Source of the DNA: an uncultured Alphaproteobacteria bacterium
GTDB taxonomy: Bacteria > Pseudomonadota > Alphaproteobacteria > Rs-D84 > CACZYB01
DNA: 64,000 nucleotides
Direction of reading: 5' to 3'
Assembly (NCBI GenBank): GCA_934246625.1
Contig: CAKQHZ010000001.1
Location: 434,964-498,963, forward strand
Shown here: positions 2,634-56,604 of the stretch, one piece after another
Layout of the letters: each line of letters begins with the position of its first letter
How positions within the stretch are numbered: position 1 is the stretch's first letter
Notes under the pieces: generated by a model
Database searches by the model: none
Seen by the model: only the letters and a program-made list of their open reading frames with translations
Told to the model about the DNA's origin: nothing
Position numbers and translations under genes: made by a program

Positions 2634-2642
2634 TTTTGCTTC

Positions 2643-24150: not shown

Positions 24151-25227
24151 ATGAACAATAAAAAATATATAATATCGGTAATAGGTGTGTTATCTTTTGT
24201 TGGAATTGCACACGCTGCTATTTTTCAATGCAGAACTTGTGAAGAGGGGACTTATGGTGATGGAACATCTGTAAGTTGCACAAAATGTCCGACTGGGGCA
24301 GTTTGTCCTGAGGGAACTGGAGCACCAATTTATTTATCAAATTATAAAGATAAGTTATTATCTGTATGTGGTGAGATAGGTAAGGAAATTGCAATAGATA
24401 CAGGTTTTTCTTCCAGTAATTTTGTTTCAGAAATGATTGATAAACAAAAAGTAAAAATAAATTATAGTGGAGATATAATTAAAAAGGGAGAAAGTGGTTA
24501 TAATTATGCAAGGGCATATTATGAAGTTAGTTGTTATGATCTTGATGGTTATTATGCAAGTAGTGGATATAAAGCTATTACAGATTTTATTCAAAGCAAA
24601 ATATGTAATGATGAATCAGAAGTAAAAAGTCATTTAGAACCTATGAGTTCATCATCAACTTTAACACCTGGAATATATAGGATTGATGTAGCTGGTGCCG
24701 GTGGTGGCGGTGCAGGTGGAAATGCTTGTGGATGGTGTTATGGAGCTGGTGGAGGTTATGGAGGTAATGGTGATTTGCAGACTAGATATATATATTTAGT
24801 TGATAATCAGCCTTATAATTATGTTGTTGGTGCTGGTGGTGGTAATGGTTGTGGTTCTGGTTGTAATCATCGTGGAGTAAATGGTAAGAAAGGTGGAACA
24901 TCATCCTTTACTTTGTTAGGAAATGTTTTTGAGGCATTAGGTGGAGATGGTGGAGAATCTGCACATAGTGGTTGTGATGTGTCTAATGGTAAAAATGGTG
25001 CTGCTGCTGGTAATGGTTTAGGTGGTGTTGGTGGTGAGAATAGATATGGTAACAAATGTGCTTATGATGGAAATACTGGTTGGGTAAAGATTTATCAAAT
25101 TGGTATGAGAAAAACCGGTTGTCCTTCTTTAAGACCATCTACTTCTTCTGGTGGATGTTCTTCAGGTGGTTATTTTGGCGGTTGCTCTACAGGTGGTTAT
25201 TTTGGTGGTTGCTCAGGAGGATACTGA
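24151..25227 (+). CDS. Secreted Cys/Gly-rich protein (358 aa) with an ephrin-receptor/TNFR-like CxxCxxGTY...CxxCPxG repeat, a glycine-rich domain and C-terminal GGYFGGCS repeats
   Basis: Signal peptide ...GIAHA. CRTCEEGTYGDGTSVSCTKCPTGAVCPEGTG. Gly-rich stretch VAGAGGGGAGG...GGGYGGNGD...VVGAGGGNG... C-terminal GGYFGGCSTGGYFGGCSGGY. Confidence 0.75.
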   Translation: MNNKKYIISVIGVLSFVGIAHAAIFQCRTCEEGTYGDGTSVSCTKCPTGAVCPEGTGAPIYLSNYKDKLLSVCGEIGKEIAIDTGFSSSNFVSEMIDKQKVKINYSGDIIKKGESGYNYARAYYEVSCYDLDGYYASSGYKAITDFIQSKICNDESEVKSHLEPMSSSSTLTPGIYRIDVAGAGGGGAGGNACGWCYGAGGGYGGNGDLQTRYIYLVDNQPYNYVVGAGGGNGCGSGCNHRGVNGKKGGTSSFTLLGNVFEALGGDGGESAHSGCDVSNGKNGAAAGNGLGGVGGENRYGNKCAYDGNTGWVKIYQIGMRKTGCPSLRPSTSSGGCSSGGYFGGCSTGGYFGGCSGGY

Positions 25228-31961: not shown

Positions 31962-32528
31962 ATGAAAATCATGAACAAAAAATTACTTTTATTATATATG
32001 TCTTTATATCCTTGTATAACAAATGCAAATGTATATATGTGTTTGCGATGTCCTGTTGGAACTTATGGTGATGGAAAATCATCATATTGTTCACCTTGTC
32101 CAAAAATAGATGGAGCACATTATTTGGAAGATTCAAAGAATTGTGAATGGGAGTGTGATGAAGGTAAAGTTGTTGTTGCAAAATATGCGAATGGTGGAGG
32201 TTGTTGCACTGAACCAGCTAAACCAAAATGTCCTTCTGTTAAAGTTTATGTTTTCGGTAACTGTTCAGGTTCGGGTTCTCATGGAGGATCTTGTCAACTT
32301 CAATATTCAAAAACTTTGGAATGTGGAGAAAGTTTTCAAAATGATGGGAGTGCGACAAATACACCAAATGGACAATATGATTGTATAACGATGGCTTGTA
32401 GAAGCGGAGGTTTTGTTAAAAATATTAATGGAGAAATGTGGTGTTATAAAGACTCCTATGATATGAAAAAAAATAAAAATGGACGTCATTATGATAGGTC
32501 AGGTGATGCTAAATGTCTAAAAGAGTAA
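31962..32528 (+). CDS. Secreted Cys-rich protein (188 aa) with ephrin-receptor/TNFR-like CLRCPVGTYGDGKSSYCSPCP repeat
   Basis: Signal peptide. 25 Cys. SD AAAGGGAGA. Motif shared with 24151..25227 and 44255..44908. Confidence 0.7.
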   Translation: MKIMNKKLLLLYMSLYPCITNANVYMCLRCPVGTYGDGKSSYCSPCPKIDGAHYLEDSKNCEWECDEGKVVVAKYANGGGCCTEPAKPKCPSVKVYVFGNCSGSGSHGGSCQLQYSKTLECGESFQNDGSATNTPNGQYDCITMACRSGGFVKNINGEMWCYKDSYDMKKNKNGRHYDRSGDAKCLKE

Positions 32529-32767: not shown

Positions 32768-33352
32768 TTATCTCCAGCTATCACGCTTTCTTGCAAAATA
32801 TGCTTGAGGGTGATTGCATGCAGGACAAACTTCAGGAGCAGAATTTCCAATGTGAAGATATCCACAATTTAAGCATTCCCAAATGATTCTTTCGGATTTT
32901 TTGAAAATTGTATCTTCTTTTAATTCCTTTACCATAGAAAGGAATCTTTCTTCGTGGTGTTTTTCTGCTACACCAATTGCACCCATAATTTTTGCGATTT
33001 CTTCAAAACCTTCTTCACGAGCAATTTTTGCAAAGGTAGGATACATTTCTGTGTATTCTTCCTTTTCTCCATTTGCAGCAGCAACAAGGTTTTCGGCTGT
33101 ATCACCAATTACACCAGCAGGGAAACTTGCATCAACATTTATTGATGACATACCGCCTTCTAAAAGTTTAAAAAGACGTTTTGCATGTTCCTTTTCTTGG
33201 TCGGCTGTTTCCTCAAATAATTTTGAAATTTGAACGTAGCCTTCCTTTTTTGCAACAGAGGCAAAGAATGTATATCGGTTTCTTGCTTGGGATTCTCCAG
33301 CAAATGCTGTTAATATATTTTTTTCTGTTTGTGTCCCTTTTAAGCTAGGCAT
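32768..33352 (-). CDS. rbr: Rubrerythrin (ferritin-like diiron domain plus C-terminal rubredoxin-like CxxC...CxxC)
   Basis: ExxH diiron motifs (EKEHAKRL, EKHHEERF). C-terminal CLNCGYLHIGNSAPEVCPACNHP. Confidence 0.9.
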   Translation of the reverse strand: MPSLKGTQTEKNILTAFAGESQARNRYTFFASVAKKEGYVQISKLFEETADQEKEHAKRLFKLLEGGMSSINVDASFPAGVIGDTAENLVAAANGEKEEYTEMYPTFAKIAREEGFEEIAKIMGAIGVAEKHHEERFLSMVKELKEDTIFKKSERIIWECLNCGYLHIGNSAPEVCPACNHPQAYFARKRDSWR

Positions 33353-33368
33353 TTTTTATATCCTTTCA

Positions 33369-33665
33369 TTATTTATGAGATTTCACTTTTTCCAATTCTT
33401 TGGTTATTTGTTTTTCTGTATCTGCGAATGCATTATTAAAAGCAGTATATGCGTCATCAGCTTCGGCTTTTGCAAAGAAATCAGCAAGTTTTAATTCCAA
33501 TTTTACAGATGCTTGAACCTTTTTATGTGGGGCATCAGTAAATGTAATATTTGCAGATATTAAGTTTTGATTATACTTTTCGATTTTTTTTGAAATAGTT
33601 GATTTAACATGTTCTGTTAAAGATTCTCCTATATCAAAATTTTGTCCTATAACTTGAATAGTCAT
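33369..33665 (-). CDS. hpf: Ribosome hibernation promoting factor / sigma-54 modulation protein family (98 aa)
   Basis: MTIQVIGQNFDIGESLTEHV... and ...KLELKLADFFAKAEADDAYTAFNNAFAD... match the HPF/RaiA/YfiA fold signature. Confidence 0.85.
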   Translation of the reverse strand: MTIQVIGQNFDIGESLTEHVKSTISKKIEKYNQNLISANITFTDAPHKKVQASVKLELKLADFFAKAEADDAYTAFNNAFADTEKQITKELEKVKSHK

Positions 33666-33785
33666 TTGAAACCTCCTTGGTTAGTTGAACATACTTTATA
33701 TATAGCTTTTTTTTAGGAGTTTTTCAATATAAATAATTTTTGATTTTTATCTATTTTTATGTTATTATTGAAAATAAAGGAAAGA

Positions 33786-35114
33786 ATGGGAATGAAAAAA
33801 ATTTTATGTTTTTTGATGGTTTTTACTTTTGCCGTTGAGGGCTTTTCTGCTCCACGAAAGAAGGCTGGCTCTTCTAAACGTGTAGCAACAGCAGGTAAGA
33901 TAAGGACTGCTTCTTCAACCACAATAACGGCCACAAATTCAACAGAGGAAGATTCTTTTGAATCTTGTATGGATAATATTTGTAAATCAGAACTTTATGA
34001 AGATAAGGGTAGATGTAGATGTTCATCTCAACTTGGAAGAATTGAAAAGGTTCTTCGTGATATTGAAAAAATCCAAAACCAAGCAGATGAAGATAATAAG
34101 TTGATGGAAACTTTGATGAATGTTTCAAATACTGCAAATGTAGATGATACTGTTGGAAGTGTTTATGATAATATTAACAGTATTGAAAAAAAGGCAAAAA
34201 CTATTTCTGCAAGGGCTGTGGATAAAGATTTACTTGTGATGGAAGGATTGCCTTTGTATGAAGTAGGATTAAAGAAATGTAAGGGCTTTTTGGATACACT
34301 TTCATCAAAAGATAAGGATAAAAAGAAAGAAGAATATACAAAACTTATTGAAGGAGATTGTTCTGCTTATACAACTATTTTAAAAGAAAAGGCAGATAGT
34401 GCACAAAATCTTTTGGTGCAAGCACAAAAAAATCGCGAAAAGTTTGATGAACAGGAATATAAAAAGCGTAATCAACTTGATACTAATGCTTGTTATGTAG
34501 AATATGAAGCATGTGCAAAAACCGAATGTGGCACAAACTTTAAGTATTGTAAGGATAGTGCAAAACAAGCGACCGTCCTTAAAAAGTGTCAAGCTGTGAA
34601 TTATGGTAAATGTGAAGATAATAAAACAACGGTTATTGCCGATGTAAAAAAGTATATTGCAAAGGAGCTTGAAAAGGTAAGATTAGTTGATAATTGTAAG
34701 GCTGCAATGGGTCATCTTCAAAATGGAAAATGTTTGTTTAAGGTTATGTATATTGCAGATAAATGTTCAAGTGGTAGTGGTTGTGGATCTTCTCAAGTTG
34801 TATGGGCGACACCACGTCAAAAATTCAAATGTGATGATACACGCGGTAGTTTTAAAGAGCTTATTGCTGGATGTTATGAAAGTTGTTATATTATTGGACC
34901 AAATGATGAAAAGATTTATAAGGGAACAAACCATAGTGATAATATGGGTGGTCAAATTGTTGGTGCAATATTTTCTTTGGGTATAAGTGTTGCACATACA
35001 CTTCCTGGATGTGTAGAAAAAAAGAATATTGATACTTTCTATACTCCTGCGGCTCCTGATGGTTGGGGCGAAGATGGTTATCCAACGAATCCAGAATATA
35101 AGGGAATTTTATAA
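33786..35114 (+). CDS. Secreted Cys-containing coiled-coil protein (about 442 aa) with post-signal KR/S/T-rich tract
   Basis: Signal peptide MGMKKILCFLMVFTFAVEGFSA, then PRKKAGSSKRVATAGKIRTASSTTITATNSTEED. About 28 Cys. Start chosen at ATG 33786 (SD AAGGAAAG) rather than the upstream ATG 33759, which lacks an SD. Confidence 0.65.
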   Translation: MGMKKILCFLMVFTFAVEGFSAPRKKAGSSKRVATAGKIRTASSTTITATNSTEEDSFESCMDNICKSELYEDKGRCRCSSQLGRIEKVLRDIEKIQNQADEDNKLMETLMNVSNTANVDDTVGSVYDNINSIEKKAKTISARAVDKDLLVMEGLPLYEVGLKKCKGFLDTLSSKDKDKKKEEYTKLIEGDCSAYTTILKEKADSAQNLLVQAQKNREKFDEQEYKKRNQLDTNACYVEYEACAKTECGTNFKYCKDSAKQATVLKKCQAVNYGKCEDNKTTVIADVKKYIAKELEKVRLVDNCKAAMGHLQNGKCLFKVMYIADKCSSGSGCGSSQVVWATPRQKFKCDDTRGSFKELIAGCYESCYIIGPNDEKIYKGTNHSDNMGGQIVGAIFSLGISVAHTLPGCVEKKNIDTFYTPAAPDGWGEDGYPTNPEYKGIL

Positions 35115-36452
35115 ATGAAAAAATTTTTAGTATTTGTTGTTTCTTTTGTGGTTGTATTAGGTAGTTTTTTTGATGTGGCTTTTTCTCAAAGAGCAAGGAG
35201 AAGACAAGCATCATCAAGAAAAACAAAACGTGCTGGGAATATTAAAAGGGCGGCAACTTCTGGTGGAAGTGGGGCAAAATCTTCTGGAAATACAAAAAAG
35301 GCAACTGGTTCAAAATCAAAAAGTAAAAGTTCCTCTTCTTCAAAAAGTGGGTCTTCCTCCTCCTCTTCATCATCATCATCTTCTTCTGATGAAGGGTTGT
35401 CAGCTGAACTTAAATGTCTTCAACAAAATCTTTCTTCTCTTTTAGGAGATAAATGTAAGTTTGTTGTGGATTCTGATATAACTTCTGCTTTGGAAGGAGA
35501 AGATTTATATTGTGTTTATAATTATAAGGATAGTGGTAAAACCTCAAGTGTTTATAATTATTATTTGAATGCTTATTATGGTGTTTCAGAAACATCTGTA
35601 AAGTCAGATACTTCCATCGTTAATGTGAAAAATAGTTCTAAAAATGCACTTAAGTATTATCAATATTTGATTGATGAAATTGCAAATGGAACATTAAAGG
35701 AAAGTAAAATTCTTGATAGTGTTACTGAAAAGGTTTTGGAAAATTCAAATGTTGCAAATGATGTGCAAGGTGTTATTGAAAAAAAAAGTGTTGAAACTGT
35801 GCCATTATCAATGAGTATTGTTTCTTCGGATTTGGAAAATTGCACAAAGGCGACGAAGGCAATTTTAAAAGAGTGTGGTGCGATTGGTAATCAAACAGTT
35901 AAAAAGAAAATTTCTGAAAGTTGCACCGCTTATAATGCAGTATTGTTAAAACTTGCTGGTAATAAAAAGACAGAAGCTCTTGGTTTCGAGGGTGAAATTA
36001 TAAATGCATTGAAGGAACGTGCAAATGCAGACTTTTATGATTATAAAGAGCTTGTTGAACAACAGGCTGAAAAGTTGAAACTTGATGAACAATATGCAGA
36101 AACACAAAAGAAAACAAAGCTTTTGACACTTAAGAATAAGCGTGATGATACTGCAAGTAAATTGGTTGAATTGCGAAATAGGATAAAAGGACTTAATTCG
36201 GATGATTCTGCAAAGGAAACATTTGAAAGTCAGGCAAATACTTATGCAAGCTCACTTTGTCTTTTGGATCAACAAATTTCAAGTTTGGATAGCACTTATA
36301 AACCATCTGATAATTTAGCAAAGTGTTCAGATGATGATAAAAAAAATGATAGTGATAAAAAAGATGTAGATAAAAATAAAACATCAGAAAGCGGAAATAC
36401 TTCTTCTGGTTCAAATGATACCGCTGGTAAAGCTAATATGGATGCAAAATAA
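35115..36452 (+). CDS. Secreted protein (445 aa) with a KR-rich tract, a poly-Ser run and coiled-coil regions. Translationally coupled to the upstream gene.
   Basis: ATG overlaps the upstream stop (TAAATG). Signal peptide, then QRARRRQASSRKTKRAGNIKRAATSGG..., [29 protein letters not shown]. Confidence 0.65.
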   Translation: MKKFLVFVVSFVVVLGSFFDVAFSQRARRRQASSRKTKRAGNIKRAATSGGSGAKSSGNTKKATGSKSKSKSSSSSKSGSSSSSSSSSSSSDEGLSAELKCLQQNLSSLLGDKCKFVVDSDITSALEGEDLYCVYNYKDSGKTSSVYNYYLNAYYGVSETSVKSDTSIVNVKNSSKNALKYYQYLIDEIANGTLKESKILDSVTEKVLENSNVANDVQGVIEKKSVETVPLSMSIVSSDLENCTKATKAILKECGAIGNQTVKKKISESCTAYNAVLLKLAGNKKTEALGFEGEIINALKERANADFYDYKELVEQQAEKLKLDEQYAETQKKTKLLTLKNKRDDTASKLVELRNRIKGLNSDDSAKETFESQANTYASSLCLLDQQISSLDSTYKPSDNLAKCSDDDKKNDSDKKDVDKNKTSESGNTSSGSNDTAGKANMDAK

Positions 36453-36474: not shown

Positions 36475-36512
36475 TTAAAAAAGGAGCAAAGTAATTTTTG
36501 CTCCCTTTGAAT
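36475..36512. terminator. Bidirectional rho-independent terminator between the 35115..36452 gene and rpmJ (GGAGCAAA-N6-TTTGCTCC)
   Basis: Perfect 8-bp stem at 36483-36504, with an A6 run upstream (a T-run for the minus-strand rpmJ) and T-rich downstream. Confidence 0.6.
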
Positions 36513-40941: not shown

Positions 40942-41778
40942 ATGCAAAAATTTTTTAAAAAAGTTTCTTTGATTTTTGTTTTGGGATTGGTTAGTGCTTG
41001 TTCATCTAATGTAAAACAAGATAATGTTGCTCCTCGTGTGGTGGCGGAACTTCCTGTGTTTGAATATAAGGAAACTGAAGTTATTAGCAATGATAATGAC
41101 AATATAGAGCAAACAAAACAAGAAAAGTATTTTTCAACAAAATCTGAATATGATGGAAAAATGCTTTATAAAGAAGTGGAAAAACAAGTCAAAAAAGTTG
41201 AACTAAAAAAGAAGGTGATTAAGCCTGTGTATGATACAGAAAATCATCCTATTAGTTTAGATAAAAATCAAGTAAAGCAAGTTATTAAACAAATTTCTTC
41301 TAGTCCTGATTTTGTTGATGGTGTTGAATATAAGGATAAAAATGTAAAGGCTTTGATGGAAAATTATCAAAATATCCTTAAAACTTCTTATAGTTGTTGT
41401 GTTGTAAATATTGCAGAAGAATTAAAGCATCGTGGAGTTTCCAAAGAAAGTATTGTTCAATTTTTAAAATTTGATGCTGAGGAATTTGCTTTGCAAAATA
41501 TGTGTATTGTTGTTGATGATAGTGATATTAACGATGTTTATGGAAATAAACTTTTGACAGAGGTTGTTGCAAAATCAAAAAATAGTTGTATTTGTAATAA
41601 TGCTGAATTTTTAAAACGAAATATTGATAATTTTTATAAAATTTATAATATGAAACCTGAGTTATATAATGAAGTTTTAGTCTATAGATTTAAGGATAAA
41701 AAGGGTCGTATTGTTGAGCATGATATAAATGAAACAGTCCTTAATATTTCAACAATTTTGAACAGTTGTGTAAAGTAG
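40942..41778 (+). CDS. Hypothetical lipoprotein (278 aa) inserted between skp and lpxD
   Basis: Lipobox LGLVSAC at residues 15-21. No recognisable domain. Confidence 0.55.
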   Translation: MQKFFKKVSLIFVLGLVSACSSNVKQDNVAPRVVAELPVFEYKETEVISNDNDNIEQTKQEKYFSTKSEYDGKMLYKEVEKQVKKVELKKKVIKPVYDTENHPISLDKNQVKQVIKQISSSPDFVDGVEYKDKNVKALMENYQNILKTSYSCCVVNIAEELKHRGVSKESIVQFLKFDAEEFALQNMCIVVDDSDINDVYGNKLLTEVVAKSKNSCICNNAEFLKRNIDNFYKIYNMKPELYNEVLVYRFKDKKGRIVEHDINETVLNISTILNSCVK

Positions 41779-43406: not shown

Positions 43407-43435
43407 AGGGTGTTAATTTTTTAACACCTTTTTTT
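43407..43435 (+). terminator. Rho-independent terminator after fabZ (GGTGTTAA-TTTT-TTAACACC plus T7)
   Basis: Perfect 8-bp stem followed by TTTTTTT. Confidence 0.75.
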
Positions 43436-43730
43436 GTTGCTTAAATCTTTATTATGTAATATCATAAAATTAGATTTGGATTTATCCAAGTTTAGCGTCC
43501 ATAGGTGGACGTGGGACTGTCGTAAGTTCTTTATATACTGCCGTATGTTATTTTACATACGATCTTTGTCCCCACCTTTAGTGGGGAGTCTTTGGTGTAT
43601 GTCCAGAGGATATTTTTATATTCTTAAAGACCAAGGAAATCATCTTGCAGTATATATGATTTACGAACTCCCCGCCATTTATGTGATAAATGGGAAAAAT
43701 TTTGTGATACACAAAAAAGGGGAAGAAACC

Positions 43731-44147
43731 ATGAAAAACTTATCTAAAGTACTTTGTATTTGTGCGGGGGCTATCTCGGCAAATCCTATTAACCTTCAGG
43801 CTAAAACTTTGCTTGAAACCTTGACTCAATACTGTGTTCCGACGGTTGGCAACTGCGACAAAAAGGCTACCTACAATACCTCTGGCAACTATTGCGATTG
43901 TGCCAACATCAACAAATTCTATAACTCTTCGAATCGTTCTTGCGAGAACTGTATCCTCGGCTCTTTCGCAACCTCAGACTATAAAACTTGTGAGCCTATT
44001 CATTGCCCTGACGGCTATGTTGCGACTTTGATTTCCAAAGGGGCGTGTCCAGATGGCTATACTTTGCAACAAATCAATGTGGCTTCGGGTTGTGGCGAGG
44101 GTTATGCGTTGAAGAAGTATAATCCGGCGACGAAGAGTTTTAATTAA
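43731..44147 (+). CDS. Secreted Cys-rich protein (138 aa), paralog of 23748..24056 (QYCVPTVGNCDKKATY module) but with a GC-rich codon style
   Basis: SD AAGGGGA before ATG 43731. Signal peptide MKNLSKVLCICAGAISA. The ORF body is about 43% GC against a genome background of about 30%. The upstream part of track ORF 43434..44147 is rejected as leader. Confidence 0.7.
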   Translation: MKNLSKVLCICAGAISANPINLQAKTLLETLTQYCVPTVGNCDKKATYNTSGNYCDCANINKFYNSSNRSCENCILGSFATSDYKTCEPIHCPDGYVATLISKGACPDGYTLQQINVASGCGEGYALKKYNPATKSFN

Positions 44148-44254: not shown

Positions 44255-44908
44255 ATGAAAACCATGAAGAAAAAGAAATTAGCGGTGATAGGGATAGCGG
44301 GAATGCTCTCTGCAACACCTGCCTCCGCTCAAACATTTTATCAATGTATGCCTGTAAAGTGTAAAGCAGGAGAGTATGTAAGTGGAAGTAGTTGTGAGCG
44401 TTGCACTGGAGGTTATCGTTGTCCAGGAGATAATAAAAGGTATGCGTGCACAGGCGAATGGGAATATGCAACACCAGGAAGTTCATACTGCTCTACCTTT
44501 GGCCCAAGTGATGTTCGTATTTGGGTTGGTGGTGGCTGTGCTGATAGAGATAGAAACGATCAAGCTCTAATGTCTAAGTTAGTGCCAATTACATCTTTTT
44601 CTACAAAGAAGGAAAATGGTCAAACAAAATATATTACAAACTTTAGTATTCTATCAGACAGAAACAAATATGATAGATCAGGTTTCTTTAATTGTTTAGA
44701 TAATAATTTTAAAAAAAAATATACTTCACAAGAACAATGGTGTAAATATGCAAGTATTACTCTTTTAACAACTCCAAATGCTGGTGGTTCATCAGACTTT
44801 ACCGTAAAACAATATAGTAAAGTATATGGAACGTTAGAGTTTCGATCTAGTTTTGAGTGTTTAAGATTAGGTCCAGGCGGTGGTTGTGCAAATAAATGTA
44901 ATAATTAA
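44255..44908 (+). CDS. Secreted Cys-rich protein (217 aa) with ephrin-receptor/TNFR-like CKAGEYVSGSSCERCTGGYRCPG repeat. Compositionally mosaic.
   Basis: Strong SD GAAGGAGA. Signal peptide ...ATPASA. The 5' 330 nt are about 43% GC and the 3' 320 nt about 25% GC. Confidence 0.7.
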   Translation: MKTMKKKKLAVIGIAGMLSATPASAQTFYQCMPVKCKAGEYVSGSSCERCTGGYRCPGDNKRYACTGEWEYATPGSSYCSTFGPSDVRIWVGGGCADRDRNDQALMSKLVPITSFSTKKENGQTKYITNFSILSDRNKYDRSGFFNCLDNNFKKKYTSQEQWCKYASITLLTTPNAGGSSDFTVKQYSKVYGTLEFRSSFECLRLGPGGGCANKCNN

Positions 44909-50922: not shown

Positions 50923-51888
50923 ATGTCAAATGAAGTTTTAAATTCAGCTCTTAAATATCTGGCGAATTGGTATATGCAATCTAATATAGAAGAAGTTGCT
51001 GTAAATAGGGCTGGTGAAGTATGGCTTAGACTTCGTGGAAAGCGTGAAATTCCGTGGGTTATGGAGCCTGATAAACATTTATCAAAACAATATTTGACCG
51101 ATATAATGAATATTATTGCAAATACTTATGAAGTGCCTTTTGACCCATCTGTGGGAATACCTGTTGTATATGCAACTTTGCCTGGCGACCATAGATTTTC
51201 TGGGATTGCAGGGAAAAATGTTTTATATGATAATGATGATATAGAAGGGGGAATTGCCCTTGCAATTAGAACGAAAAAGGATAGTGTCGATTTTAATTTT
51301 GCCGATTATGGCCTTGTAAAGGGTGAGGAGCTTAAAAAACTTTCTTGTGAGGAGGAAGTACTTTCATCTGACCCATATCAAAGATTGATGGATTTTATTA
51401 AACGTGGCGACCATATTTTGATAAGTGGTGCAACTGCCACTGGTAAGACAACTTTTTTGAATAATATTTTGAAGTTGCTAAGTCCAAATCTTCGTGTGAT
51501 TACGATTGAAGATTCAAGAGAATTGATTGTCCCACAAAAAAATCATCTTCATTTGTTGTTGTCAAGAACGACTCAAACAAATATGTTTTCATATAAAGAT
51601 GTGATTGATTTAGTTGTTCGTATGACACCAGATGCAATTATGGGTGGTGAAATTTCAACGGAAAATGCTGGTGCAATTTGGGAATTGATGGGAACTGGAC
51701 ATAAGCATTTCTATGCAACTATACATGCAGAATCTGTTGAAGGAGCGTATGAGGCCTTTATTGATAGAATTTTGCATACCTTTCCAGAATTGGATCAGGA
51801 AAAAACATTGGCTGAAATGAAAAAGAAACTTCACGTTGTGCAAATTGGTCGTGAAGGAAATATCAGAACAATTACAGAAATTGCATAA
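50923..51888 (+). CDS. virB11: Type IV secretion system ATPase VirB11 (321 aa)
   Basis: Walker A GATATGKTT, Asp/His boxes (…VITIEDSRELIV…), size and N-terminal domain typical of VirB11/TrbB. Confidence 0.85.
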   Translation: MSNEVLNSALKYLANWYMQSNIEEVAVNRAGEVWLRLRGKREIPWVMEPDKHLSKQYLTDIMNIIANTYEVPFDPSVGIPVVYATLPGDHRFSGIAGKNVLYDNDDIEGGIALAIRTKKDSVDFNFADYGLVKGEELKKLSCEEEVLSSDPYQRLMDFIKRGDHILISGATATGKTTFLNNILKLLSPNLRVITIEDSRELIVPQKNHLHLLLSRTTQTNMFSYKDVIDLVVRMTPDAIMGGEISTENAGAIWELMGTGHKHFYATIHAESVEGAYEAFIDRILHTFPELDQEKTLAEMKKKLHVVQIGREGNIRTITEIA

Positions 51889-52248
51889 TTATTTACCAAA
51901 AGGTTTTAGTGAAAATAACACAACAAGAGGATTTTCAGATTCAATTGTAAGTGTTAGTGATTCATCTTCGCGTTTAAATGATATTGCATTTGTTTTTTCA
52001 GAAATTTTATTCCAACCCAATGATTTTAATGTTTGGGTATAAAAGTTTAAAAATTCATCTTTTGTTAGGGTTGCACTTGAAACATATTGTTCAATAATTC
52101 TTATTTCTTCATTGTCATAGGAGAATGGCTCTTCCTCGGTTAATGTGTCTTGAAGTGGGATTTCTTCGAATGCAGACATAAAACCTTCAGCCCTTGCACA
52201 AAGGGAAAATGTTAAACATAGTAAAATTGTAAATAAAAATTTTTTCAT
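51889..52248 (-). CDS. Small secreted/lipoprotein-like hypothetical (119 aa) downstream of virB10
   Basis: Signal peptide MKKFLFTILLCLTFSLCARA. Its stop codon abuts the convergent virB11 stop. Confidence 0.45.
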   Translation of the reverse strand: MKKFLFTILLCLTFSLCARAEGFMSAFEEIPLQDTLTEEEPFSYDNEEIRIIEQYVSSATLTKDEFLNFYTQTLKSLGWNKISEKTNAISFKREDESLTLTIESENPLVVLFSLKPFGK

Positions 52249-52258
52249 TTTTCACCTA

Positions 52259-54352
52259 TTATTGTCCATATTTATGGTCAGGATTTGCATCTTCAATCAT
52301 TTGATCCATTTCATCTTCAATTCTTAACATAACATCGTTTTGAAGAAATACCATAATTCGTGTTCCCGCAGCAACGGTAAATGGAATGCTTGTTTGTGCA
52401 CTTTGGTCAATTAACTTTTGCATAGTTGTTTTCCAATTTTGCTCGATTTCCAATTTCATTTTATCCTTTGATGACATATTTGCTATTGTTTGTGTATCAG
52501 TTGGGGACCAGCCATATTCAGGTTGGTTTTCTGTATTAATTACGTCAGATACATTTTCTCCATCATCATTTATAAATGTATCTAATGCTTGATATGTTCC
52601 ATCGGAACGTTTTACACGTGTTACAAATTGAGAAGAAGTTGGGAATAATGCTTCCATTGCAACAGGAAGAACAGAATAAAGTAATGGTTTTACGAATAAA
52701 TCACGCATATATTCGGTATCGTTTTTACCTGCTACACCCTGACGACCTTGGGCATCTGCAGTATAGTTAACAACTTGAGTTAAATCAAATTCGGCACCAT
52801 CTGGACGTATAAGTCGGTCCCATTCTATGCTGATTTTTTCAATTTCTTGAAGACCTGCACCTTTAGGAGCGGTTGCTTTTCCAATAAGTTGTGAGCCAGC
52901 AGGGACAATAATTGTGCGTCCATCACCACCATAAACATTTCGTTCAACCGTTGCAACGGCAGGTGTTTCGTTTTCAAAATTTGTTCCATCATTTTCAGCA
53001 TAATCTATATTGCCGAAGTAAATTGGTCTGTTTAACACAGCTGGAATTGGTTTTGATTGACGAAGAACGTATCTTTCATCCTTTGGCATAGAAGATACTT
53101 GACCAGTGCTTGTTATAGTAAATGGAATAAGTGAGTTTTTTTGTTTGCCAATTATGTTTAATGGGTCGTCTGCCTTATATAAATCATAGTCAACATCTTT
53201 TCCACCATAACCTTCTTGTTTCACAGCAAGGCGGTTGTTCCAAACATCTTCGAAATTTGGATTAAAGTTTTCGGAATTGATTGTTTGCATTACCTCGTCC
53301 AAAACAGGAAGAGTTAGTTCAATTCTTTTTTCTTCGGATTTCTTTTTATCAAATACGGCACCCTTTCCAATGATTTTTCCAGTTGCAGTTTCAAGGACCA
53401 TTCCGTCTTCTTGAAGTGAGCCGATTATTTTTGAACAATTTGGTGAAAATACATCATTATTTGATTGAACCCAACCAATAAATGTTCCAGAAAAATCATA
53501 GGCTTTACTTGCATATTTCTTGCAATCGCTTGGATATACAGTTCTTTTTTCTTGTGCCTTTGGTGTGATTGCAGGAGCCACTGCATTTGTGAATTCTTCG
53601 ACTTCTTCCTCGTCTGCTGGTTCTATATCTTCATTATCATAGATTTCTTCATCATCATCTTCTTCAAAAAATTCATCTACTTTCTCTTGTTGTTGAGGTT
53701 GTGTTTGCACAGGTGCAGGTTTTTCTATTGAAGAGATTGATAAATTGACCTTGAAACTTTTTTCGGGTGAATTTTCGTTAGTATTATTTAGTTCATTATA
53801 TTTTATAAGTATAAATATATTTTTATTTTCAACCTTTGTAGGGGTCCAAACAACATTTATTATACATCCAGATTCTGGTGTAATTGATGCTCTTTCAGTG
53901 CAATCTTGGTCAAAGCCAAGTCCATTTACAGATGTTGATAATGAAATATTGTTAATTTTGATTGGATTATTTGCAACAGATAACATAATAGAGTTAAATG
54001 TTTCATTTCCAATAATTATATTTTCAAATTTTATATTTTGTGGGTCTGCAGTTAAAATAGGTGAAATATAAGTGAAATTTTGAGTTGTTTCCTTTTTTGT
54101 TTGTGCTGGGGTAGATGGAGTTTGCTCTATGGTTTCAATCTTTTTATTTGTTTGGTTTGCTGTGATAATAGCTCCTAATACAAAAATGCCAAGCATTACA
54201 AATGCGATAAAAAGCAAAATGATATTTGTCTTTTTTGTGGCAAGTTCAGATTTGCTTTTTTTATCGTTTGGAAGCATTTCCGCATTTTCTTCTGATGTTG
54301 AAGAAGATGGAGTATTTGTTGCTTTACCCTTTTTCTTAAATAAATCTACCAT
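52259..54352 (-). CDS. virB10: Type IV secretion system protein VirB10/TrbI with an unusually long (about 450 aa) N-terminal/periplasmic linker region (697 aa total)
   Basis: N-terminal cytoplasmic tail plus TM helix. Acidic/Pro-Gln-rich linker. C-terminal barrel motifs RTIIVPAGSQLIGKA...ISIEWDRLIRPDGAEFDL...DAQGRQGVAGKND...IPFTVAAGTRIMVFLQNDV. Confidence 0.75.
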   Translation of the reverse strand: MVDLFKKKGKATNTPSSSTSEENAEMLPNDKKSKSELATKKTNIILLFIAFVMLGIFVLGAIITANQTNKKIETIEQTPSTPAQTKKETTQNFTYISPILTADPQNIKFENIIIGNETFNSIMLSVANNPIKINNISLSTSVNGLGFDQDCTERASITPESGCIINVVWTPTKVENKNIFILIKYNELNNTNENSPEKSFKVNLSISSIEKPAPVQTQPQQQEKVDEFFEEDDDEEIYDNEDIEPADEEEVEEFTNAVAPAITPKAQEKRTVYPSDCKKYASKAYDFSGTFIGWVQSNNDVFSPNCSKIIGSLQEDGMVLETATGKIIGKGAVFDKKKSEEKRIELTLPVLDEVMQTINSENFNPNFEDVWNNRLAVKQEGYGGKDVDYDLYKADDPLNIIGKQKNSLIPFTITSTGQVSSMPKDERYVLRQSKPIPAVLNRPIYFGNIDYAENDGTNFENETPAVATVERNVYGGDGRTIIVPAGSQLIGKATAPKGAGLQEIEKISIEWDRLIRPDGAEFDLTQVVNYTADAQGRQGVAGKNDTEYMRDLFVKPLLYSVLPVAMEALFPTSSQFVTRVKRSDGTYQALDTFINDDGENVSDVINTENQPEYGWSPTDTQTIANMSSKDKMKLEIEQNWKTTMQKLIDQSAQTSIPFTVAAGTRIMVFLQNDVMLRIEDEMDQMIEDANPDHKYGQ

Positions 54353-54373
54353 AGAAAAAACCTCTATCTTCTT

Positions 54374-55888
54374 TTATTGAGTCCTTACAACACTGCATGG
54401 AACACTTTGAAGTGAAAGTTTTTGACATATTTCATCAGCAACTTCTATCTTTGCAAATGGTCCAATTCTTAGGCGATAAAATTCTCCGCCGTAATATCTT
54501 TGTTGTCCGATTTCATCAACACCACTTGTTTCAACAGAATAGAAAGGTGTGTATTCGTCAAGCCATGGAAGTTTTTCAGTTAATTCAAGCCATTTGTTTT
54601 CAAGGTCGACAACTGACTTTCCTTTAAAGACTTCTACACTTACGTTTTGTGAATTTTGTTTTACAAGTGGAACGTAGTGGTTTGGAAGCACAGATGCGTT
54701 TGTCTTTGTTTTTGGTAAAAGTGAGTTATATATAATTTCATTTTCTTGAGATGTATAAGGTTGCATACCTCCCATAGGATAACCACCAACCATATTTGTC
54801 ATAGGGTATGACAAGTTTTGTGGATACATATATGCACCAGTTGTCATATCTCCAGCATAGCCAGTTGTAAGCATCTCTTGTCCAGACATATAATTTCCAG
54901 ATAATGTTGCGTTTGCATCACCAATGTTTCCAGCAACTGCAACCAAATCTTGTGGAGGTGGTGGATTAGAGAGCAAGTATGGTTTTGAACGAAGTTTTAT
55001 ACAAACAATTCTTTGTCCGTTTCGTAAAACCAAATCGCCGATAGCTTCAACAACAAGAAGACGGCTTTGTGGACCTTCGGTTCGTGAACCTACAGGAGTT
55101 TCGCCACCTTCGACCAATAATGAAACTACAGGTCGTTGATTCATATTTAATGCCTTTTCACCGAAGTCAATGTATGTGAAAATTTGATCACGCCATACAC
55201 GTTCAGGTGCAATTACGTAATCATCAGGATTTGGAACGAATACATCTAAATCAAAACGAAATTCTGTTGGGTCAACATTTATACTTTTTATCCAACCGAA
55301 ATCTTCGCCTTCCCAATCATTATCACCCACATCTTTGAAACTTTGTCCGCCCATCATTGATTTTGATGATACAAAGTTGTTTGATGAACCAGATGAAGAT
55401 GCACCGTTGCTTCCTTTTCTGTATTTATATGGAACAGAAATATCAATTACAGAAGAGGTAATTTTTTCAGAATTAAGTGGTTCTGATTTTAGGTAAAAGA
55501 CATATTTATTTCCACTGTTTCCGAAAATGAATAGGTTTGTATCAGCCATTGCACGACCATCAACAGGAGAAATCATAAATGTATTTTTTTCAACTGGACG
55601 ACCATCAAAGAAATCCTTGTCCCCGACATAAGCGTCCTTTATGGTTTCCCATTCTGGGAAGTTAATGATTGTTAACATACCATCACGAAGTTTGATAGGC
55701 ATAACTGATCCTGGTTCCCATTGTATTTTTTGGAAACCTGGTTTTGTTTGGTTTTCTCCCATATTTTGCATTGGGTTATCCCATGCGTTTTGTGTTCCAA
55801 AACCAACCCCAGGAACAACTTCTTGAGAATAAACTGGAGCTGTTAAGAGTGAAAATATTAAAGGTAAAATTTTAAAAATATTTTTCAT
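54374..55888 (-). CDS. virB9: Type IV secretion system protein VirB9 fused to a C-terminal SPOR-like domain (504 aa)
   Basis: N-terminal VirB9/TrbG signature (IQWEPGSVMPIKLRDGMLTIINFP...TNLFIFGNSGNKYVFYLK). C-terminal 80 aa (...FYSVETSG...FYRLRIGPFAKIEVADEICQKL...VPCSVV) resemble a SPOR peptidoglycan-binding domain. Confidence 0.8.
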   Translation of the reverse strand: MKNIFKILPLIFSLLTAPVYSQEVVPGVGFGTQNAWDNPMQNMGENQTKPGFQKIQWEPGSVMPIKLRDGMLTIINFPEWETIKDAYVGDKDFFDGRPVEKNTFMISPVDGRAMADTNLFIFGNSGNKYVFYLKSEPLNSEKITSSVIDISVPYKYRKGSNGASSSGSSNNFVSSKSMMGGQSFKDVGDNDWEGEDFGWIKSINVDPTEFRFDLDVFVPNPDDYVIAPERVWRDQIFTYIDFGEKALNMNQRPVVSLLVEGGETPVGSRTEGPQSRLLVVEAIGDLVLRNGQRIVCIKLRSKPYLLSNPPPPQDLVAVAGNIGDANATLSGNYMSGQEMLTTGYAGDMTTGAYMYPQNLSYPMTNMVGGYPMGGMQPYTSQENEIIYNSLLPKTKTNASVLPNHYVPLVKQNSQNVSVEVFKGKSVVDLENKWLELTEKLPWLDEYTPFYSVETSGVDEIGQQRYYGGEFYRLRIGPFAKIEVADEICQKLSLQSVPCSVVRTQ

Positions 55889-55959
55889 TTTATGTCTTTC
55901 CTGTTCCTCATTTTTATAATTTAGCCTTTTTTTTACTGATAATACAAGTATTTTTTTTA

Positions 55960-56604
55960 TTATTTTATGTATTTGTATTCTTCAATGACAAAACCAAGAG
56001 GATTTTTCCACATTGATTTTGTATCCTTTTTATATGGAGTTTCAAGAAACTTTGCCTTTATTTGGATTTTTTTAATTTCTGTTCGTTTGTTTAATCCGTA
56101 TTCGTCTGTTATGTTTAGGGTTGCTAATGCTTCCCATAAATTTAGTTTTGAATGATATTGAATGTCATCAGGATTTATTGAAACGGTTATTATTTCCTTA
56201 TTTGGATTTAAAATACCGTTTTTGAAATCTGAACTTGTGTAAAAAGATTTGTATGTGTTTTCTGTGCTCATAAAAAATAAATTGCTGTCTATACCCCAAA
56301 GTTGTCGCATTTTAACTGGATTTGTGTATAGGCTTTCACGTTCAATAATGTATTGAATTATGTATGATTTTGCAATTTGATAGCCCACAGAATTTTGTGA
56401 AATGTTTAAATTTGATGCACGTTGGATATATAAAGTTTCGATATTTTTATCTTGTGCTTCGACAAAAAAAGCCTCCCACTTTGTTTGTGGAGCAATTTTA
56501 TTTAATGAAAATATAAGGACAATGTTGAGTATTATGCTTAGGGCAATAAAAATACCAAAAATTCTTAAAAGCCATAAATATCTTTGTTCGTCAATTTTTT
56601 TCAA
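55960..56604 (-). CDS. virB8: Type IV secretion system protein VirB8 (214 aa)
   Basis: Short cytoplasmic N-terminus, single TM (LWLLRIFGIFIALSIILNIVLIF), NTF2-like periplasmic domain ending ...KNPLGFVIEEYKYIK (VirB8 NPLGF signature). Confidence 0.7.
   Translation of the reverse strand: MKKIDEQRYLWLLRIFGIFIALSIILNIVLIFSLNKIAPQTKWEAFFVEAQDKNIETLYIQRASNLNISQNSVGYQIAKSYIIQYIIERESLYTNPVKMRQLWGIDSNLFFMSTENTYKSFYTSSDFKNGILNPNKEIITVSINPDDIQYHSKLNLWEALATLNITDEYGLNKRTEIKKIQIKAKFLETPYKKDTKSMWKNPLGFVIEEYKYIK

What the first reader, a model, noticed from the sequence alone, without database searches (positions are those of the whole stretch)
33786..36452. Tandem, translationally coupled secreted proteins with KR-rich NLS-like tracts, a poly-Ser run and Cys-studded coiled coils
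Both proteins have a signal peptide immediately followed by a basic tract (SAPRKKAGSSKRVATAGKIRTASS / SQRARRRQASSRKTKRAGNIKRAATSGG). The second ORF starts on the stop of the first (TAAATG), so they are co-expressed. The second adds [29 protein letters not shown] (a run of 13 Ser) and about 250 aa of predicted coiled coil. The first carries about 28 Cys in helical segments. Basic bipartite K/R clusters after a signal peptide resemble nuclear-localisation-like motifs of secreted effectors, or histone-H1-like tails. No housekeeping function matches. This looks like a lineage-specific surface or effector pair.
Basis: partly seen in the sequence, partly recalled or inferred. Interest (0 to 1): 0.65.

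Follow-up and report, generated by a model that had tools for sequence, protein, structure and literature searches.

The report
Exported cysteine-rich envelope protein pair
Two back-to-back genes encode an exported, disulfide-rich protein pair of unknown function. The pair is found only in uncultured gut Alphaproteobacteria and looks like a cell-envelope or surface component, not a nucleus-targeted effector.

Summary
The two ORFs are real: A is 33792-35114 (an alternative ATG lies at 33786) and B is 35115-36452. They meet at TAAATG. Each has an N-terminal signal peptide followed by a disordered basic tract. Some details need correcting. A has 21 Cys (20 in the mature protein), not 28. The Ser run in B is 12, not 13. 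Only about 150 aa of B form long helices, not 250.

Neither protein matches Pfam, NCBIfam, PHROGs, PADLOC, PDB sequences, or Foldseek searches of PDB and BFVD. Both are conserved, always adjacent and tightly coupled, in all 19 loci examined. All of these loci come from uncultured gut Alphaproteobacteria or "Rickettsiales" MAGs.

Mature Cys counts are always even (A: 20, 18, 16 or 14; B: 8 or 6), which points to disulfide-bonded extracytoplasmic proteins. A belongs to a larger undescribed superfamily of 600-1200 aa Cys-rich exported paralogs. In one locus these paralogs sit beside a DsbA-like gene.

NLS consensus patterns are no more frequent in the tracts than in shuffled tracts. What the tracts do conserve is a short motif, (K/R/A/V)R(A/S)A(S/T). 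My best reading is a heteromeric, disulfide-stapled envelope or surface complex held by cationic N-terminal tails. The function remains inferred. The nuclear-targeting and histone-like readings are not supported.

The parts
33740..33768 (+). Candidate sigma-70-like promoter for the A-B operon (TTGATT, 17 nt spacer, TATTAT, preceded by TG)
   Evidence: Consensus scan only. It lies in the AT-rich divergent intergenic region between the hibernation-factor gene (33369-33665, minus strand) and A. Not evidence of function.
33792..35114 (+). Gene A: 440-aa exported Cys-rich protein. An alternative ATG at 33786 would add Met-Gly.
   Evidence: ORF and sequence. 47 homologues at 40-99% identity, all unnamed. 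No hit in Pfam, NCBIfam, PHROGs or PADLOC.
33792..33851 (+). A signal peptide (MKKILCFLMVFTFAVEGFSA)
   Evidence: K-rich start, hydrophobic core and small residues at -3/-1, conserved across 36 homologues. Heuristic only; no SignalP was available.
33852..33947 (+). A basic disordered tract (PRKKAGSSKRVATAGKIRTASSTTITATNSTE; net charge +6, pI 11.7)
   Evidence: pLDDT below 50. Only 20% identity across homologues against 62% for the core. The loose motif [KR]R[AQSVG]A occurs 22 times against 1.8 expected in shuffles.
33954..34703 (+). A helical Cys-stapled core, with 14 invariant Cys and the motifs CMDNIC..GRCRCS and DCSAY...CYVEYEAC..TECG.NF..C
   Evidence: Alignment A1. The AlphaFold2 helices are given in numbering, which counts from ATG 33786: helices 57-306, pLDDT mostly 80-97. 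Subtract 2 for numbering from ATG 33792, giving about aa 55-304, which is the span these coordinates cover. This core is the part shared with the 600-1200 aa paralogues.
34713..35111 (+). A C-terminal beta domain with 6 Cys, ending in the invariant tail P.GWG.DGYP...[FL]
   Evidence: AlphaFold2 strands 310-420 (numbering from ATG 33786), pLDDT around 90. Invariant G426, W427, D430, G431 and P433. Foldseek gives only non-significant hits to the N-terminal beta-sandwich of glycogen-branching enzymes, in both PDB and BFVD.
34947..35009 (+). Gly-rich hydrophobic loop (GGQIVGAIFSLGISVAHTLPG) flanked by Cys on both sides
   Evidence: pLDDT below 50. Present in most homologues but deleted in several. 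The single Cys after the loop (C407) must pair with a Cys before it to keep the count even. Both ends of the loop are therefore inferred to lie in the same compartment (inference).
35100..35117 (+). Coupling junction: AAGGGA (Shine-Dalgarno-like), 6 nt, TAA stop of A, ATG of B
   Evidence: Sequence. In the loci where the B start could be placed, the junction is between -11 and +14 nt.
35115..36452 (+). Gene B: 445-aa exported protein
   Evidence: ORF. 22 homologues. A B orthologue lies directly downstream of A in all 19 loci.
35115..35186 (+). B signal peptide (MKKFLVFVVSFVVVLGSFFDVAFS)
35187..35393 (+). B basic, Ser-rich disordered tract (net charge +15, pI 12.0). It includes the KRAAT motif at 35244-35258 and the 12-Ser run at 35352-35387.
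   Evidence: pLDDT around 30. The motif [KRAV]R[AS]A[STAG] is present in every B orthologue in the 18 related loci: 18 observed against 1.2 expected in shuffles. The Ser run varies from 10 to 12 among strains at 94-99% identity.
35400..36029 (+). B conserved core (aa 96-305): mixed alpha/beta, Tyr-rich, with 5 invariant Cys
   Evidence: Alignments A2 and A4. 66% identity against 38% for the following helices. There is a weak profile-profile match to A: A 93-200 against B 186-278, probability 71%, E 3.6e-5.
36030..36287 (+). B long helices (coiled-coil-like hairpin, aa 306-391)
   Evidence: AlphaFold2 helices 292-358 and 365-391. In distant orthologues this part is replaced by K/E-rich low-complexity tails.
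36315..36449 (+). B acidic, Ser-rich disordered tail
   Evidence: pLDDT around 30. A 6-aa indel (DKKNDS) varies among strains.
36479..36508 (.). Bidirectional intrinsic-terminator-like hairpin between B and rpmJ, which lies on the minus strand
   Evidence: rpmJ was confirmed by Pfam Ribosomal_L36, E 9e-11.

Best explanation
A and B are co-translated subunits of a lineage-specific complex. Both are exported by the Sec pathway and stabilised by intramolecular disulfides, and the complex sits in the cell envelope (periplasm or outer surface) of an uncultured gut alphaproteobacterium.

Each protein is exported by a cleavable signal peptide. Its folded Cys-stapled domain is oxidised in the periplasm: 10 disulfides in A and 4 in B. 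Each domain is held by a flexible polycationic N-terminal tail. The tail contains a conserved short docking motif, (K/R/A/V)R(A/S)A(S/T), and I propose it binds an anionic envelope partner such as peptidoglycan, LPS, or a common receptor protein. A also carries a disulfide-closed hydrophobic Gly-rich loop that could dip into a membrane.

Shown here: the gene pairing and coupling, the conservation, the signal-peptide features, the even-Cys rule, the motif enrichment, and the absence of any known family.

Inferred: the A-B heteromer, the exact location in the envelope, the partner of the tail, and a structural or contact role.
For: - The A-B order is conserved in 19/19 loci, with junctions of -11 to +14 nt in the loci where the B start could be placed. 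This implies stoichiometric co-production.
- Signal-peptide features are conserved in both families and in the long paralogues.
- Mature Cys counts are always even and change in pairs. A has 20, 18, 16 or 14. B has 8 or 6. Of 122 long paralogues, 84% have an even count.
- The long paralogues cluster with a DsbA-like thioredoxin, an M23 peptidase and an OmpA-like protein in L019.
- In the window the pair lies next to rseP-bamA-skp-lpxD-fabZ. In other loci it lies near lpxB or an OmpA-family gene.
- The tract motif is strongly enriched over shuffles and occurs only once, in B, among all ORFs of at least 80 aa in the window.
- The cores are well conserved (62-66% identity) while the tracts vary in sequence but not in charge.
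- There is weak evidence that A and B are distant paralogues.
Against: - There is no experimental or homology-based functional evidence. All structure and family searches came back empty.
- No signal-peptide predictor was available.
- Arg and Lys at positions +2 to +6 after the predicted cleavage site (A: PRKK; B: QRARRR) are, from my own knowledge of E. coli Sec export, unfavourable for translocation. By the positive-inside rule they could instead favour the opposite topology.
- The flanking genes, apart from rubrerythrin, are not conserved, so the envelope-biogenesis neighbourhood in the window is weak evidence.
- The heteromer was not tested because no multimer prediction was possible.
- The homologues are phylogenetically related, so the binomial and shuffle statistics overstate independence.
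Confidence: 0.5

Rival explanations
1. The pair consists of surface-displayed or released adhesins or effectors that act on a partner or host cell. This includes the reader's version, in which the basic tracts act as nuclear-localisation signals.
For: - The window encodes a scattered type IV secretion system: VirB3, VirB4, VirB8, VirB9, VirB10 and a VirB11-like ATPase.
- Gut Alphaproteobacteria with reduced genomes (order Rs-D84) have been proposed to depend on partner cells and to carry many unexplained membrane proteins (PMC12306168). Whether the window belongs to that order was not tested.
- A has a hydrophobic loop closed by a disulfide and a C-terminal beta-sandwich-like domain.
- The family has expanded into many long variable paralogues.
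- R-x-x-S/T is also a generic eukaryotic basophilic-kinase consensus (own knowledge).
Against: - NLS consensus patterns are not enriched over shuffled tracts.
- Sec signal peptides, not C-terminal type IV signals, are present.
- The pair is not next to the virB islands in the window or in any of the 18 related loci.
- The cores are highly conserved and A and B stay adjacent in every locus, unlike typical effectors.
- No eukaryotic-like domain was found.
Confidence: 0.2
2. The pair forms a periplasmic thiol, redox or metal-handling module functionally tied to rubrerythrin. In this reading the many Cys act as a redox buffer or metal ligands rather than as structural disulfides.
For: - Rubrerythrin is the divergent upstream neighbour of A in 15 of 19 loci. 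It is the only flanking gene that is broadly conserved.
- The close Cys spacings (C-x4-C-x10-C-x-C and C-x6-C-x4-C-x6-C) could in principle bind metals.
Against: - Rubrerythrin has no signal peptide and acts in the cytoplasm (own knowledge), so it is in a different compartment.
- The strict even-number rule, with losses in pairs, is the signature of disulfides.
- The conserved neighbourhood may simply be inherited gene order.
Confidence: 0.08
3. The pair consists of accessory parts or Sec-dependent substrates of the type IV secretion system. This would resemble VirB5-like or TrbJ-like periplasmic helical proteins, or pertussis-toxin-like export from the periplasm.
For: - Type IV secretion genes are present in the same window.
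- No VirB5 or VirB2 was recognised among the ORFs scanned.
- A and B are helical, exported proteins of unknown function.
Against: - There is no sequence or fold similarity to any type IV component in Pfam or PDB.
- The pair lies 17-31 kb from the virB genes here and is never adjacent to them in the related loci.
Confidence: 0.07
4. The N-terminal hydrophobic segment is an uncleaved reverse signal-anchor. The basic tracts and Cys-rich domains would then stay in the cytoplasm, attached to the membrane and perhaps binding DNA or acidic lipids (the histone-H1-like idea).
For: - The charge after the hydrophobic segment (+5 to +8 within 15 residues) exceeds the charge before it (+2). The positive-inside rule would then put the C-terminal side in the cytoplasm (own knowledge).
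- B's hydrophobic segment is 20 residues long.
Against: - Many homologues have hydrophobic stretches of only 10-12 residues, with classical A-x-A-type cleavage sites.
- The long paralogues have typical signal peptides followed by acidic residues.
- Even Cys counts and the neighbouring DsbA-like gene argue for export.
Confidence: 0.05

Closest known systems
Chlamydial cysteine-rich outer-membrane complex proteins OmcB and OmcA
   Same: Both are exported by a signal peptide and carry many Cys that form disulfides in the envelope. OmcB also has a variable basic N-terminal region ahead of the Cys-rich body (own knowledge). The proposed role is the same: disulfide-stabilised envelope architecture.
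   Different: There is no sequence or fold relationship. No Pfam hit was found and no Foldseek hit to PDB. From my own knowledge, OmcB is built of beta-rich DUF11 repeats, whereas A and B are mainly helical. Intermolecular cross-linking is untested here. The hosts of A and B make LPS and peptidoglycan (lpxC, lpxD and a class A PBP are in the window).
Undescribed 600-1200 aa Cys-rich exported proteins of uncultured gut Alphaproteobacteria (for example MCL2748790.1, MDR1361111.1, MCL2629311.1)
   Same: These are true homologues of A, with profile E-values from 1e-19 to 1e-9. They share the signal peptide, the R/A/S/T-rich tract with ARAAT-type motifs, the motifs CMD.FC..G.RC.CS and DC.A[YF]...C..C...CG.NF..C, a Gly-rich hydrophobic stretch near the C-terminus, and even Cys counts.
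   Different: They are two to three times longer, with extra Cys-rich modules. They occur in clusters of several copies (L019). They have no B-like core. They are annotated only as hypothetical proteins, so they say nothing about function.
Periplasmic coiled-coil envelope tethers (Braun lipoprotein Lpp, TolA domain II)
   Same: Both are helical, exported, and plausibly span or organise the periplasm. B has a 67-residue helix.
   Different: A and B have no lipobox Cys at the cleavage site and no homology to these proteins. B's long helices are not conserved in distant orthologues.
Bacterial nucleomodulins (effectors that carry an NLS)
   Same: Both have short K/R-rich stretches in an otherwise unrelated protein.
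   Different: NLS patterns occur at chance level. A and B have a Sec signal peptide rather than a type III or type IV signal. They are disulfide-rich, and they are conserved core genes in the clade.

Membership tests
NLS-bearing secreted effector (nucleomodulin) | A classical monopartite or bipartite NLS that is conserved or enriched | tested here: not met
   Regex counts against 200 shuffles per tract. A: 6 and 3 observed against 5.8 and 1.9 expected. B: 2 and 1 against 6.1 and 1.9.
NLS-bearing secreted effector (nucleomodulin) | Delivery by a dedicated secretion signal (type III N-terminal or type IV C-terminal) into a eukaryotic cell | tested here: inconclusive
   Both proteins carry Sec-type signal peptides. 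Type IV secretion genes exist in the window but are not linked to the pair. No host is known.
NLS-bearing secreted effector (nucleomodulin) | Nuclear accumulation in host cells | not testable with these tools
   Needs GFP-fusion expression in eukaryotic cells.
Histone H1-like or Hc1-like basic nucleoid proteins | Cytoplasmic location (no signal peptide) and homology to the H1 or Hc1 families | tested here: not met
   A signal peptide is present and conserved. No Pfam or NCBIfam hit. Even, paired Cys counts indicate an oxidising compartment.
Chlamydial OmcB/OmcA Cys-rich envelope proteins | Sequence or fold homology (DUF11-type repeats) | tested here: not met
   No Pfam hit at E up to 1. No Foldseek PDB hit at E of 0.001 or better.
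Chlamydial OmcB/OmcA Cys-rich envelope proteins | An exported protein with many disulfide-forming Cys and a basic N-terminal region | tested here: met
   This is an analogy only.
Known periplasmic or structural families (Tol-Pal, flagellar, OmpA, Lpp, LysM, SPOR and others) | A profile match to a curated family or to a solved structure | tested here: not met
   Pfam, NCBIfam, PHROGs and PADLOC returned nothing above noise. PDB profile searches found nothing at E below 0.2. Foldseek against PDB and BFVD found nothing at E of 0.001 or better.
Bacterial lipoproteins | A lipobox with Cys at +1 of the mature protein | tested here: not met
   The predicted cleavage sites are GFSA|P (A) and VAFS|Q (B). 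There is no Cys at +1.
Type IV secretion components (VirB2, VirB5, VirB7, TrbJ) | Homology to these components, or placement inside a virB operon | tested here: not met
   No Pfam or PDB match. The virB3-virB4 and virB8-virB9-virB10 islands lie 17-31 kb away.
New A-like Cys-rich exported superfamily of gut Alphaproteobacteria (undescribed) | Signal peptide, R[AS]A[ST]-bearing tract, the motifs CMD..C..G.RC.CS and DC.AY...C..C..CG.NF..C, and an even Cys count | tested here: met
   A meets all of these. B shares the signal peptide, the tract motif and the even Cys count, plus only a weak profile match to one A module.

The most novel reading that the evidence does not exclude
A-B and the expanded long paralogues could form a new kind of bacterial surface coat or contact apparatus. 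It would be disulfide-armoured and protease-resistant, and it would serve gut Alphaproteobacteria that have reduced genomes and may depend on partner cells. In this reading the N-terminal (K/R)R(A/S)A(S/T) tract is a previously unrecognised sorting or anchoring signal shared by the whole superfamily. The disulfide-closed hydrophobic loop of A would insert into a partner cell's membrane.
Probability: 0.15. Interest if true: 0.7.

Novelty: new variant of a known kind. Interest (0 to 1): 0.4.

Why it matters
If the reading is right, the pair marks an undescribed, clade-wide family of disulfide-rich exported proteins. A profile of A finds 297 clusters (at 50% identity) with E-values up to 0.001. 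The family belongs to uncultured gut Alphaproteobacteria that are common in animal guts.

A published analysis of a related-looking order, Rs-D84, found very small genomes and unexplained envelope proteins and proposed dependence on other cells. The conserved N-terminal motif could be a new sorting or anchoring tag, and A-B would be a good first target for learning how these bacteria build or use their surface.

If the pair is just a lineage-specific structural envelope protein, it is of local interest only. Either way, the nuclear-targeting idea should be dropped.

Tried and rejected
- **Known families.** Pfam, NCBIfam, PHROGs and PADLOC scans of A and B gave no hits.
- **Solved structures, by sequence.** Profile searches of PDB sequences with alignments A1 and A2 gave nothing, or only low-complexity and coiled-coil noise.
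- **Wider search for B relatives.** A profile search with the conserved B core found only hypothetical proteins from the same clade.
- **Paralogues in the window.** Searching the six-frame ORFs of the window with the A and B profiles found none.
- **M16 peptidase as a processor of the presequence-like tract.** This neighbour, upstream in 7 loci, has no signal peptide and its HxxEH motif sits at residue 48, so it is cytoplasmic. Rejected.
- **NLS patterns.** They occur at chance level.
- **Ser-run phase variation.** Only in-frame differences of 1-2 codons were seen, with mixed Ser codons.
- **Regulatory RNA.** The Rfam scan of the window found only three tRNAs and no regulatory RNA near the operon.
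- **Literature.** Searches for a description of this family or lineage found only a general paper on Rs-D84. An attempt to get the GTDB taxonomy of one related MAG from a paper's supplement failed.
Full report
**1. What is in the sequence**

The region holds two + strand ORFs, 33759/33786/33792-35114 (A) and 35115-36452 (B). The stop codon of A (TAA, 35112-35114) is followed at once by the ATG of B. An AAGGGA Shine-Dalgarno-like site lies 9 nt upstream of that ATG, inside the last codons of A.

A most likely starts at ATG 33792 (MKKILCF...) rather than 33786. Homologues begin with MKK, the 99%-identical database protein P0001 is 440 aa long, and the spacing from the AAGGAAAG site fits better.

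A terminator-like hairpin that could work in both directions (36479-36508) separates B from rpmJ on the other strand. A-B is therefore a self-contained two-gene operon. The short ORFs on the minus strand inside A and B are only what the mechanical ORF list gives. I did not examine them further.

**2.

The quoted basic tracts and the Ser stretch are there. Several numbers need correcting.
- A has 21 Cys, one of them in the signal peptide and 20 in the mature protein, not about 28.
- The longest Ser run in B is 12, not 13.
- AlphaFold2, run with the family alignments, gives A a long-helix bundle (residues 57-306 in the 442-aa numbering, helices up to 55 residues) followed by a beta domain (310-420). 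Mean pLDDT is 77.
- B has a mixed alpha/beta core (about 96-290) followed by long helices (292-358 and 365-391). Mean pLDDT is 65. Long helices therefore cover about 150 aa of B, not 250.
- The tracts that follow the signal peptides (A 23-55, B 25-93) and the tail of B (406-445) are predicted disordered, with pLDDT of 30-45.

After the signal peptide, A's tract has net charge +6 (pI 11.7) and B's has +15 (pI 12.0). The folded parts are acidic, with pI 6.1 and 5.2.

**3. Is it more than chance?**

Yes. A has 47 homologues (40-99% identity) and B has 22, all unnamed, from metagenomes and from MAGs labelled "bacterium", "Alphaproteobacteria bacterium" or "Rickettsiales bacterium".

A scan of species-representative genomes found 16 loci. 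All are in uncultured Alphaproteobacteria-type MAGs from mouse, ruminant, deer, termite and other guts. Two of the MAGs are labelled Bacteroidales, probably a binning or labelling error.

In all 19 loci (16 from this scan, 2 fetched by exact protein and partly redundant with them, plus the window), a B orthologue lies directly downstream of A. The junctions range from an 11-nt overlap to a 14-nt gap in the loci where the B start could be placed.

The only other broadly conserved neighbour is a divergently transcribed rubrerythrin, present in 15 of 19 loci and often with a hibernation-factor gene between it and A. The other flanking genes differ.

Conservation is uneven. A's helical core is 62% identical to the window protein on average, its C-terminal part 49%, and its basic tract only 20%. 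For B the figures are 66% for the core, 38% for the long helices and 19% for the tail. In distant B orthologues the coiled-coil part is replaced by K/E-rich low-complexity tails.

**4. Export and disulfides**

No signal-peptide predictor was available, so I used simple measures. Both families and the long paralogues described in section 5 have a K/R-containing start, a strongly hydrophobic 10-residue window (median Kyte-Doolittle score 2.4-3.1) and small residues at -3/-1.

The most informative result is the Cys count after the signal peptide, which is even in every sequence. A has 20 in 30 of 36 sequences, otherwise 18, 16 or 14. B has 8 in 13 of 14 sequences and 6 in the other. Among 122 long paralogues, 84% have even counts.

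The sequences are related, so the binomial p-values overstate independence. Even so, Cys are lost only in pairs, which is the expected signature of structural disulfides in exported proteins. This even-number bias is an established criterion (own knowledge).

In a locus fetched around a long paralogue (L019), three family members sit with a DsbA-like thioredoxin, an M23 peptidase and an OmpA-like protein.

One observation remains unexplained. The Arg and Lys residues at +2 to +6 of the predicted mature proteins (PRKK in A, QRARRR in B) would, from what is known in E. coli, hinder Sec export. This keeps a low-probability rival topology alive.

**5. A larger family**

A profile of A, searched against 1.84 billion representative proteins, found 297 proteins at E up to 0.001 and 69 at E up to 1e-10. 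Beyond the orthologues, most are 600-1200 aa proteins from Alphaproteobacteria or Rickettsiales MAGs from guts.

These are true homologues and share several features with A.
- A signal peptide.
- An R/A/S/T-rich tract.
- The N-terminal motif C..Y..CMD.FC....G.RC.CS.
- The module [LI]..DC.A[FY]...L....C...[FY]..C....CG.NFE.C.
- A Gly/Ala-rich hydrophobic stretch near the C-terminus, followed by a short Cys-containing end.

They have no Pfam domain. None is encoded in the window.

A and B themselves show a weak profile-profile match over one helix-hairpin module: A 93-200 against B 186-278, probability 71%, E 3.6e-5. The A profile also weakly detects two B orthologues. The two may therefore be old paralogues.

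**6. What the basic tract is**

Classical NLS patterns are not selected. Monopartite and bipartite matches occur about as often as in shuffled versions of the same tracts.

What is conserved is a short linear motif, R[AS]A[ST], usually preceded by K, R, A or V. It appears as KRAAT in B of the window, KRVAT and IRTAS in A, KRSAS and RRSAS in distant B orthologues, and VSARAATTQKVIN-like repeats in the long paralogues.

The motif counts against composition-preserving shuffles are as follows.

| Set | Motif | Observed | Expected in shuffles |
|---|---|---|---|
| B tracts | R[AS]A[ST] | 18 | 1.2 ± 1.1 |
| Long-paralogue tracts | R[AS]A[ST] | 98 | 16.8 ± 3.8 |
| A tracts | [KR]R[AQSVG]A (looser) | 22 | 1.8 ± 1.3 |

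The density of the motif is 0.3-1.4 per 100 aa in the tracts and 0-0.01 elsewhere in the same proteins. Among all ORFs of at least 80 aa in the six frames of the window, it occurs only once, in B. A form of the motif, sometimes ending in A or G, is present in every B orthologue in the 18 related loci, whatever the genome's G+C content. In the 54% G+C locus the tract is R/A-rich, and in the 32% G+C window it is K/S-rich.

The tract is therefore a flexible cationic linker that carries a conserved docking or processing motif. It is not a nuclear signal. Its partner is unknown.

**7. Ser-run polymorphism**

Eight near-identical strain variants of B (91-99% identity) differ by one or two Ser and an A/S change in the run, giving 10-12 Ser. 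They also differ by a 6-aa indel in the acidic tail. The run is encoded by mixed TCT, TCC and TCA codons and all changes are in frame. This is ordinary low-complexity length drift, not phase variation.

**8. Genomic setting**

The window is chromosomal, about 32% G+C. It is alphaproteobacterial in character, with a Ros/MucR regulator.

Upstream of the operon lie infB-nusA-rimP, clpP, an outer-membrane beta-barrel protein, a small Cys-rich secreted protein, rubrerythrin and a hibernation factor. Downstream lie rpmJ, rseP, bamA, skp, lpxD and fabZ.

The window also carries scattered type IV secretion genes: virB3-virB4 at one end and virB8-virB9-virB10 plus a virB11-like ATPase near the other. 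F-type ATP synthase genes are present too.

A paper on order Rs-D84 (Candidatus Enterousia and relatives) describes gut Alphaproteobacteria with genomes mostly under 1 Mb. They lack respiration and many biosynthetic pathways, probably depend on partner cells, and have many unexplained membrane proteins (PMC12306168). The window fits that picture, but I could not test whether it belongs to that order.

**9. Interpretation**

The best-supported reading is a two-subunit complex that is Sec-exported, stapled by disulfides, and located in the cell envelope or on the surface. It would be held by cationic N-terminal tails that dock through the conserved motif. In A there may also be a hydrophobic Gly-rich loop that is closed by a disulfide. 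The single Cys after the loop has to pair with one before it, so both ends of the loop lie in the same compartment.

The pairing, conservation, export features, disulfide signature and motif are shown here. The heteromer, the exact location and the role are inferred.

The closest functional analogy is the chlamydial Cys-rich envelope proteins (OmcB also has a basic N-terminal region). There is no homology, so membership fails and only the "works like" comparison stands.

Four rivals remain: a partner- or host-directed adhesin or effector (0.2, with the specific NLS version far lower), a redox or metal role linked to rubrerythrin (0.08), a type IV secretion accessory or substrate (0.07), and a reversed membrane topology with cytoplasmic domains (0.05).

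**10. Verdict**

The NLS, histone-like and phase-variation ideas are not supported.

The proteins belong to an undescribed family, so their function is open. They are an undescribed variant of a familiar kind of thing, namely exported, disulfide-rich envelope proteins. I score interest as moderate at 0.4. The conserved N-terminal motif and the large paralogue family in little-known gut Alphaproteobacteria are the parts worth following up.

Noticed in passing
window 198-2936 (minus strand) and 50923-56604: Type IV secretion genes are scattered in two chromosomal islands. One holds virB3 (2643-2936) and virB4 (198-2633). The other holds virB10-like (52259-54352, unusually long at 697 aa), virB9-like (54374-55888, with a C-terminal SPOR peptidoglycan-binding domain), virB8 (55960-56604) and a VirB11-like ATPase (50923-51888, + strand). 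From my own knowledge, the split layout recalls the Rickettsiales vir homologue system.
   Followed up: partly
window 24151-25227 (+) and 31962-32528 (+): Two further secreted Cys-rich proteins share an N-terminal module, C..C..GTYGDG.S..C..CP, directly after the signal peptide (BLASTP E 2e-7 between them). Both give a weak Pfam NCD3G hit. The longer one continues into a Gly-rich domain (PF21722, E 1e-4) and ends in GGCS.GGYFGGCS repeats. Neither is related to A or B.
   Followed up: partly
window 32768-33665 (minus strand) and related loci L002-L018: Rubrerythrin, often with a ribosome-hibernation-factor gene, is transcribed divergently from A in 15 of 19 loci. It is the only flanking gene conserved across the clade. 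Whether this reflects shared regulation or simply inherited gene order is unknown.
   Followed up: partly
locus L019 (1-12776): In a 54% G+C alphaproteobacterial MAG from a termite gut, long A-like paralogues of 944 and 732 aa matched the A profile here. A neighbouring 951-aa gene, truncated in the locus, belongs to the cluster of another profile hit (P0110). These sit with a DsbA-like thioredoxin, an M23 peptidase and a 498-aa OmpA-like protein.
   Followed up: partly
window 60379-61170 (+): The F-type ATP synthase operon encodes a single 263-aa ORF that matches both the b subunit (ATP-synt_B) and the delta/OSCP subunit. It looks like a fused b-delta stalk protein.
   Followed up: no
window 40942-41778, 43434-44147 and 44255-44908 (+): Three ORFs inside or just after the bamA-skp-lpxD-fabZ cluster have no Pfam hit at E up to 0.001. 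The ORF after fabZ, where lpxA is usually found, is one of them. The first two are conserved in the closest related loci (clusters c11 and c13).
   Followed up: no
window 3408-3824 (minus strand): A Ros/MucR-family transcriptional regulator (Pfam E 4e-43), which is a hallmark of Alphaproteobacteria, lies beside the virB3-virB4 island.
   Followed up: no
window 33852-33870 and 35187-35210: Clusters of Arg and Lys sit directly after the predicted signal-peptidase sites (PRKK in A, QRARRR in B). This is conserved in many orthologues (for example A|RK, A|KK). From my own knowledge of E. coli, such charges impair Sec export. No explanation was found.
   Followed up: partly
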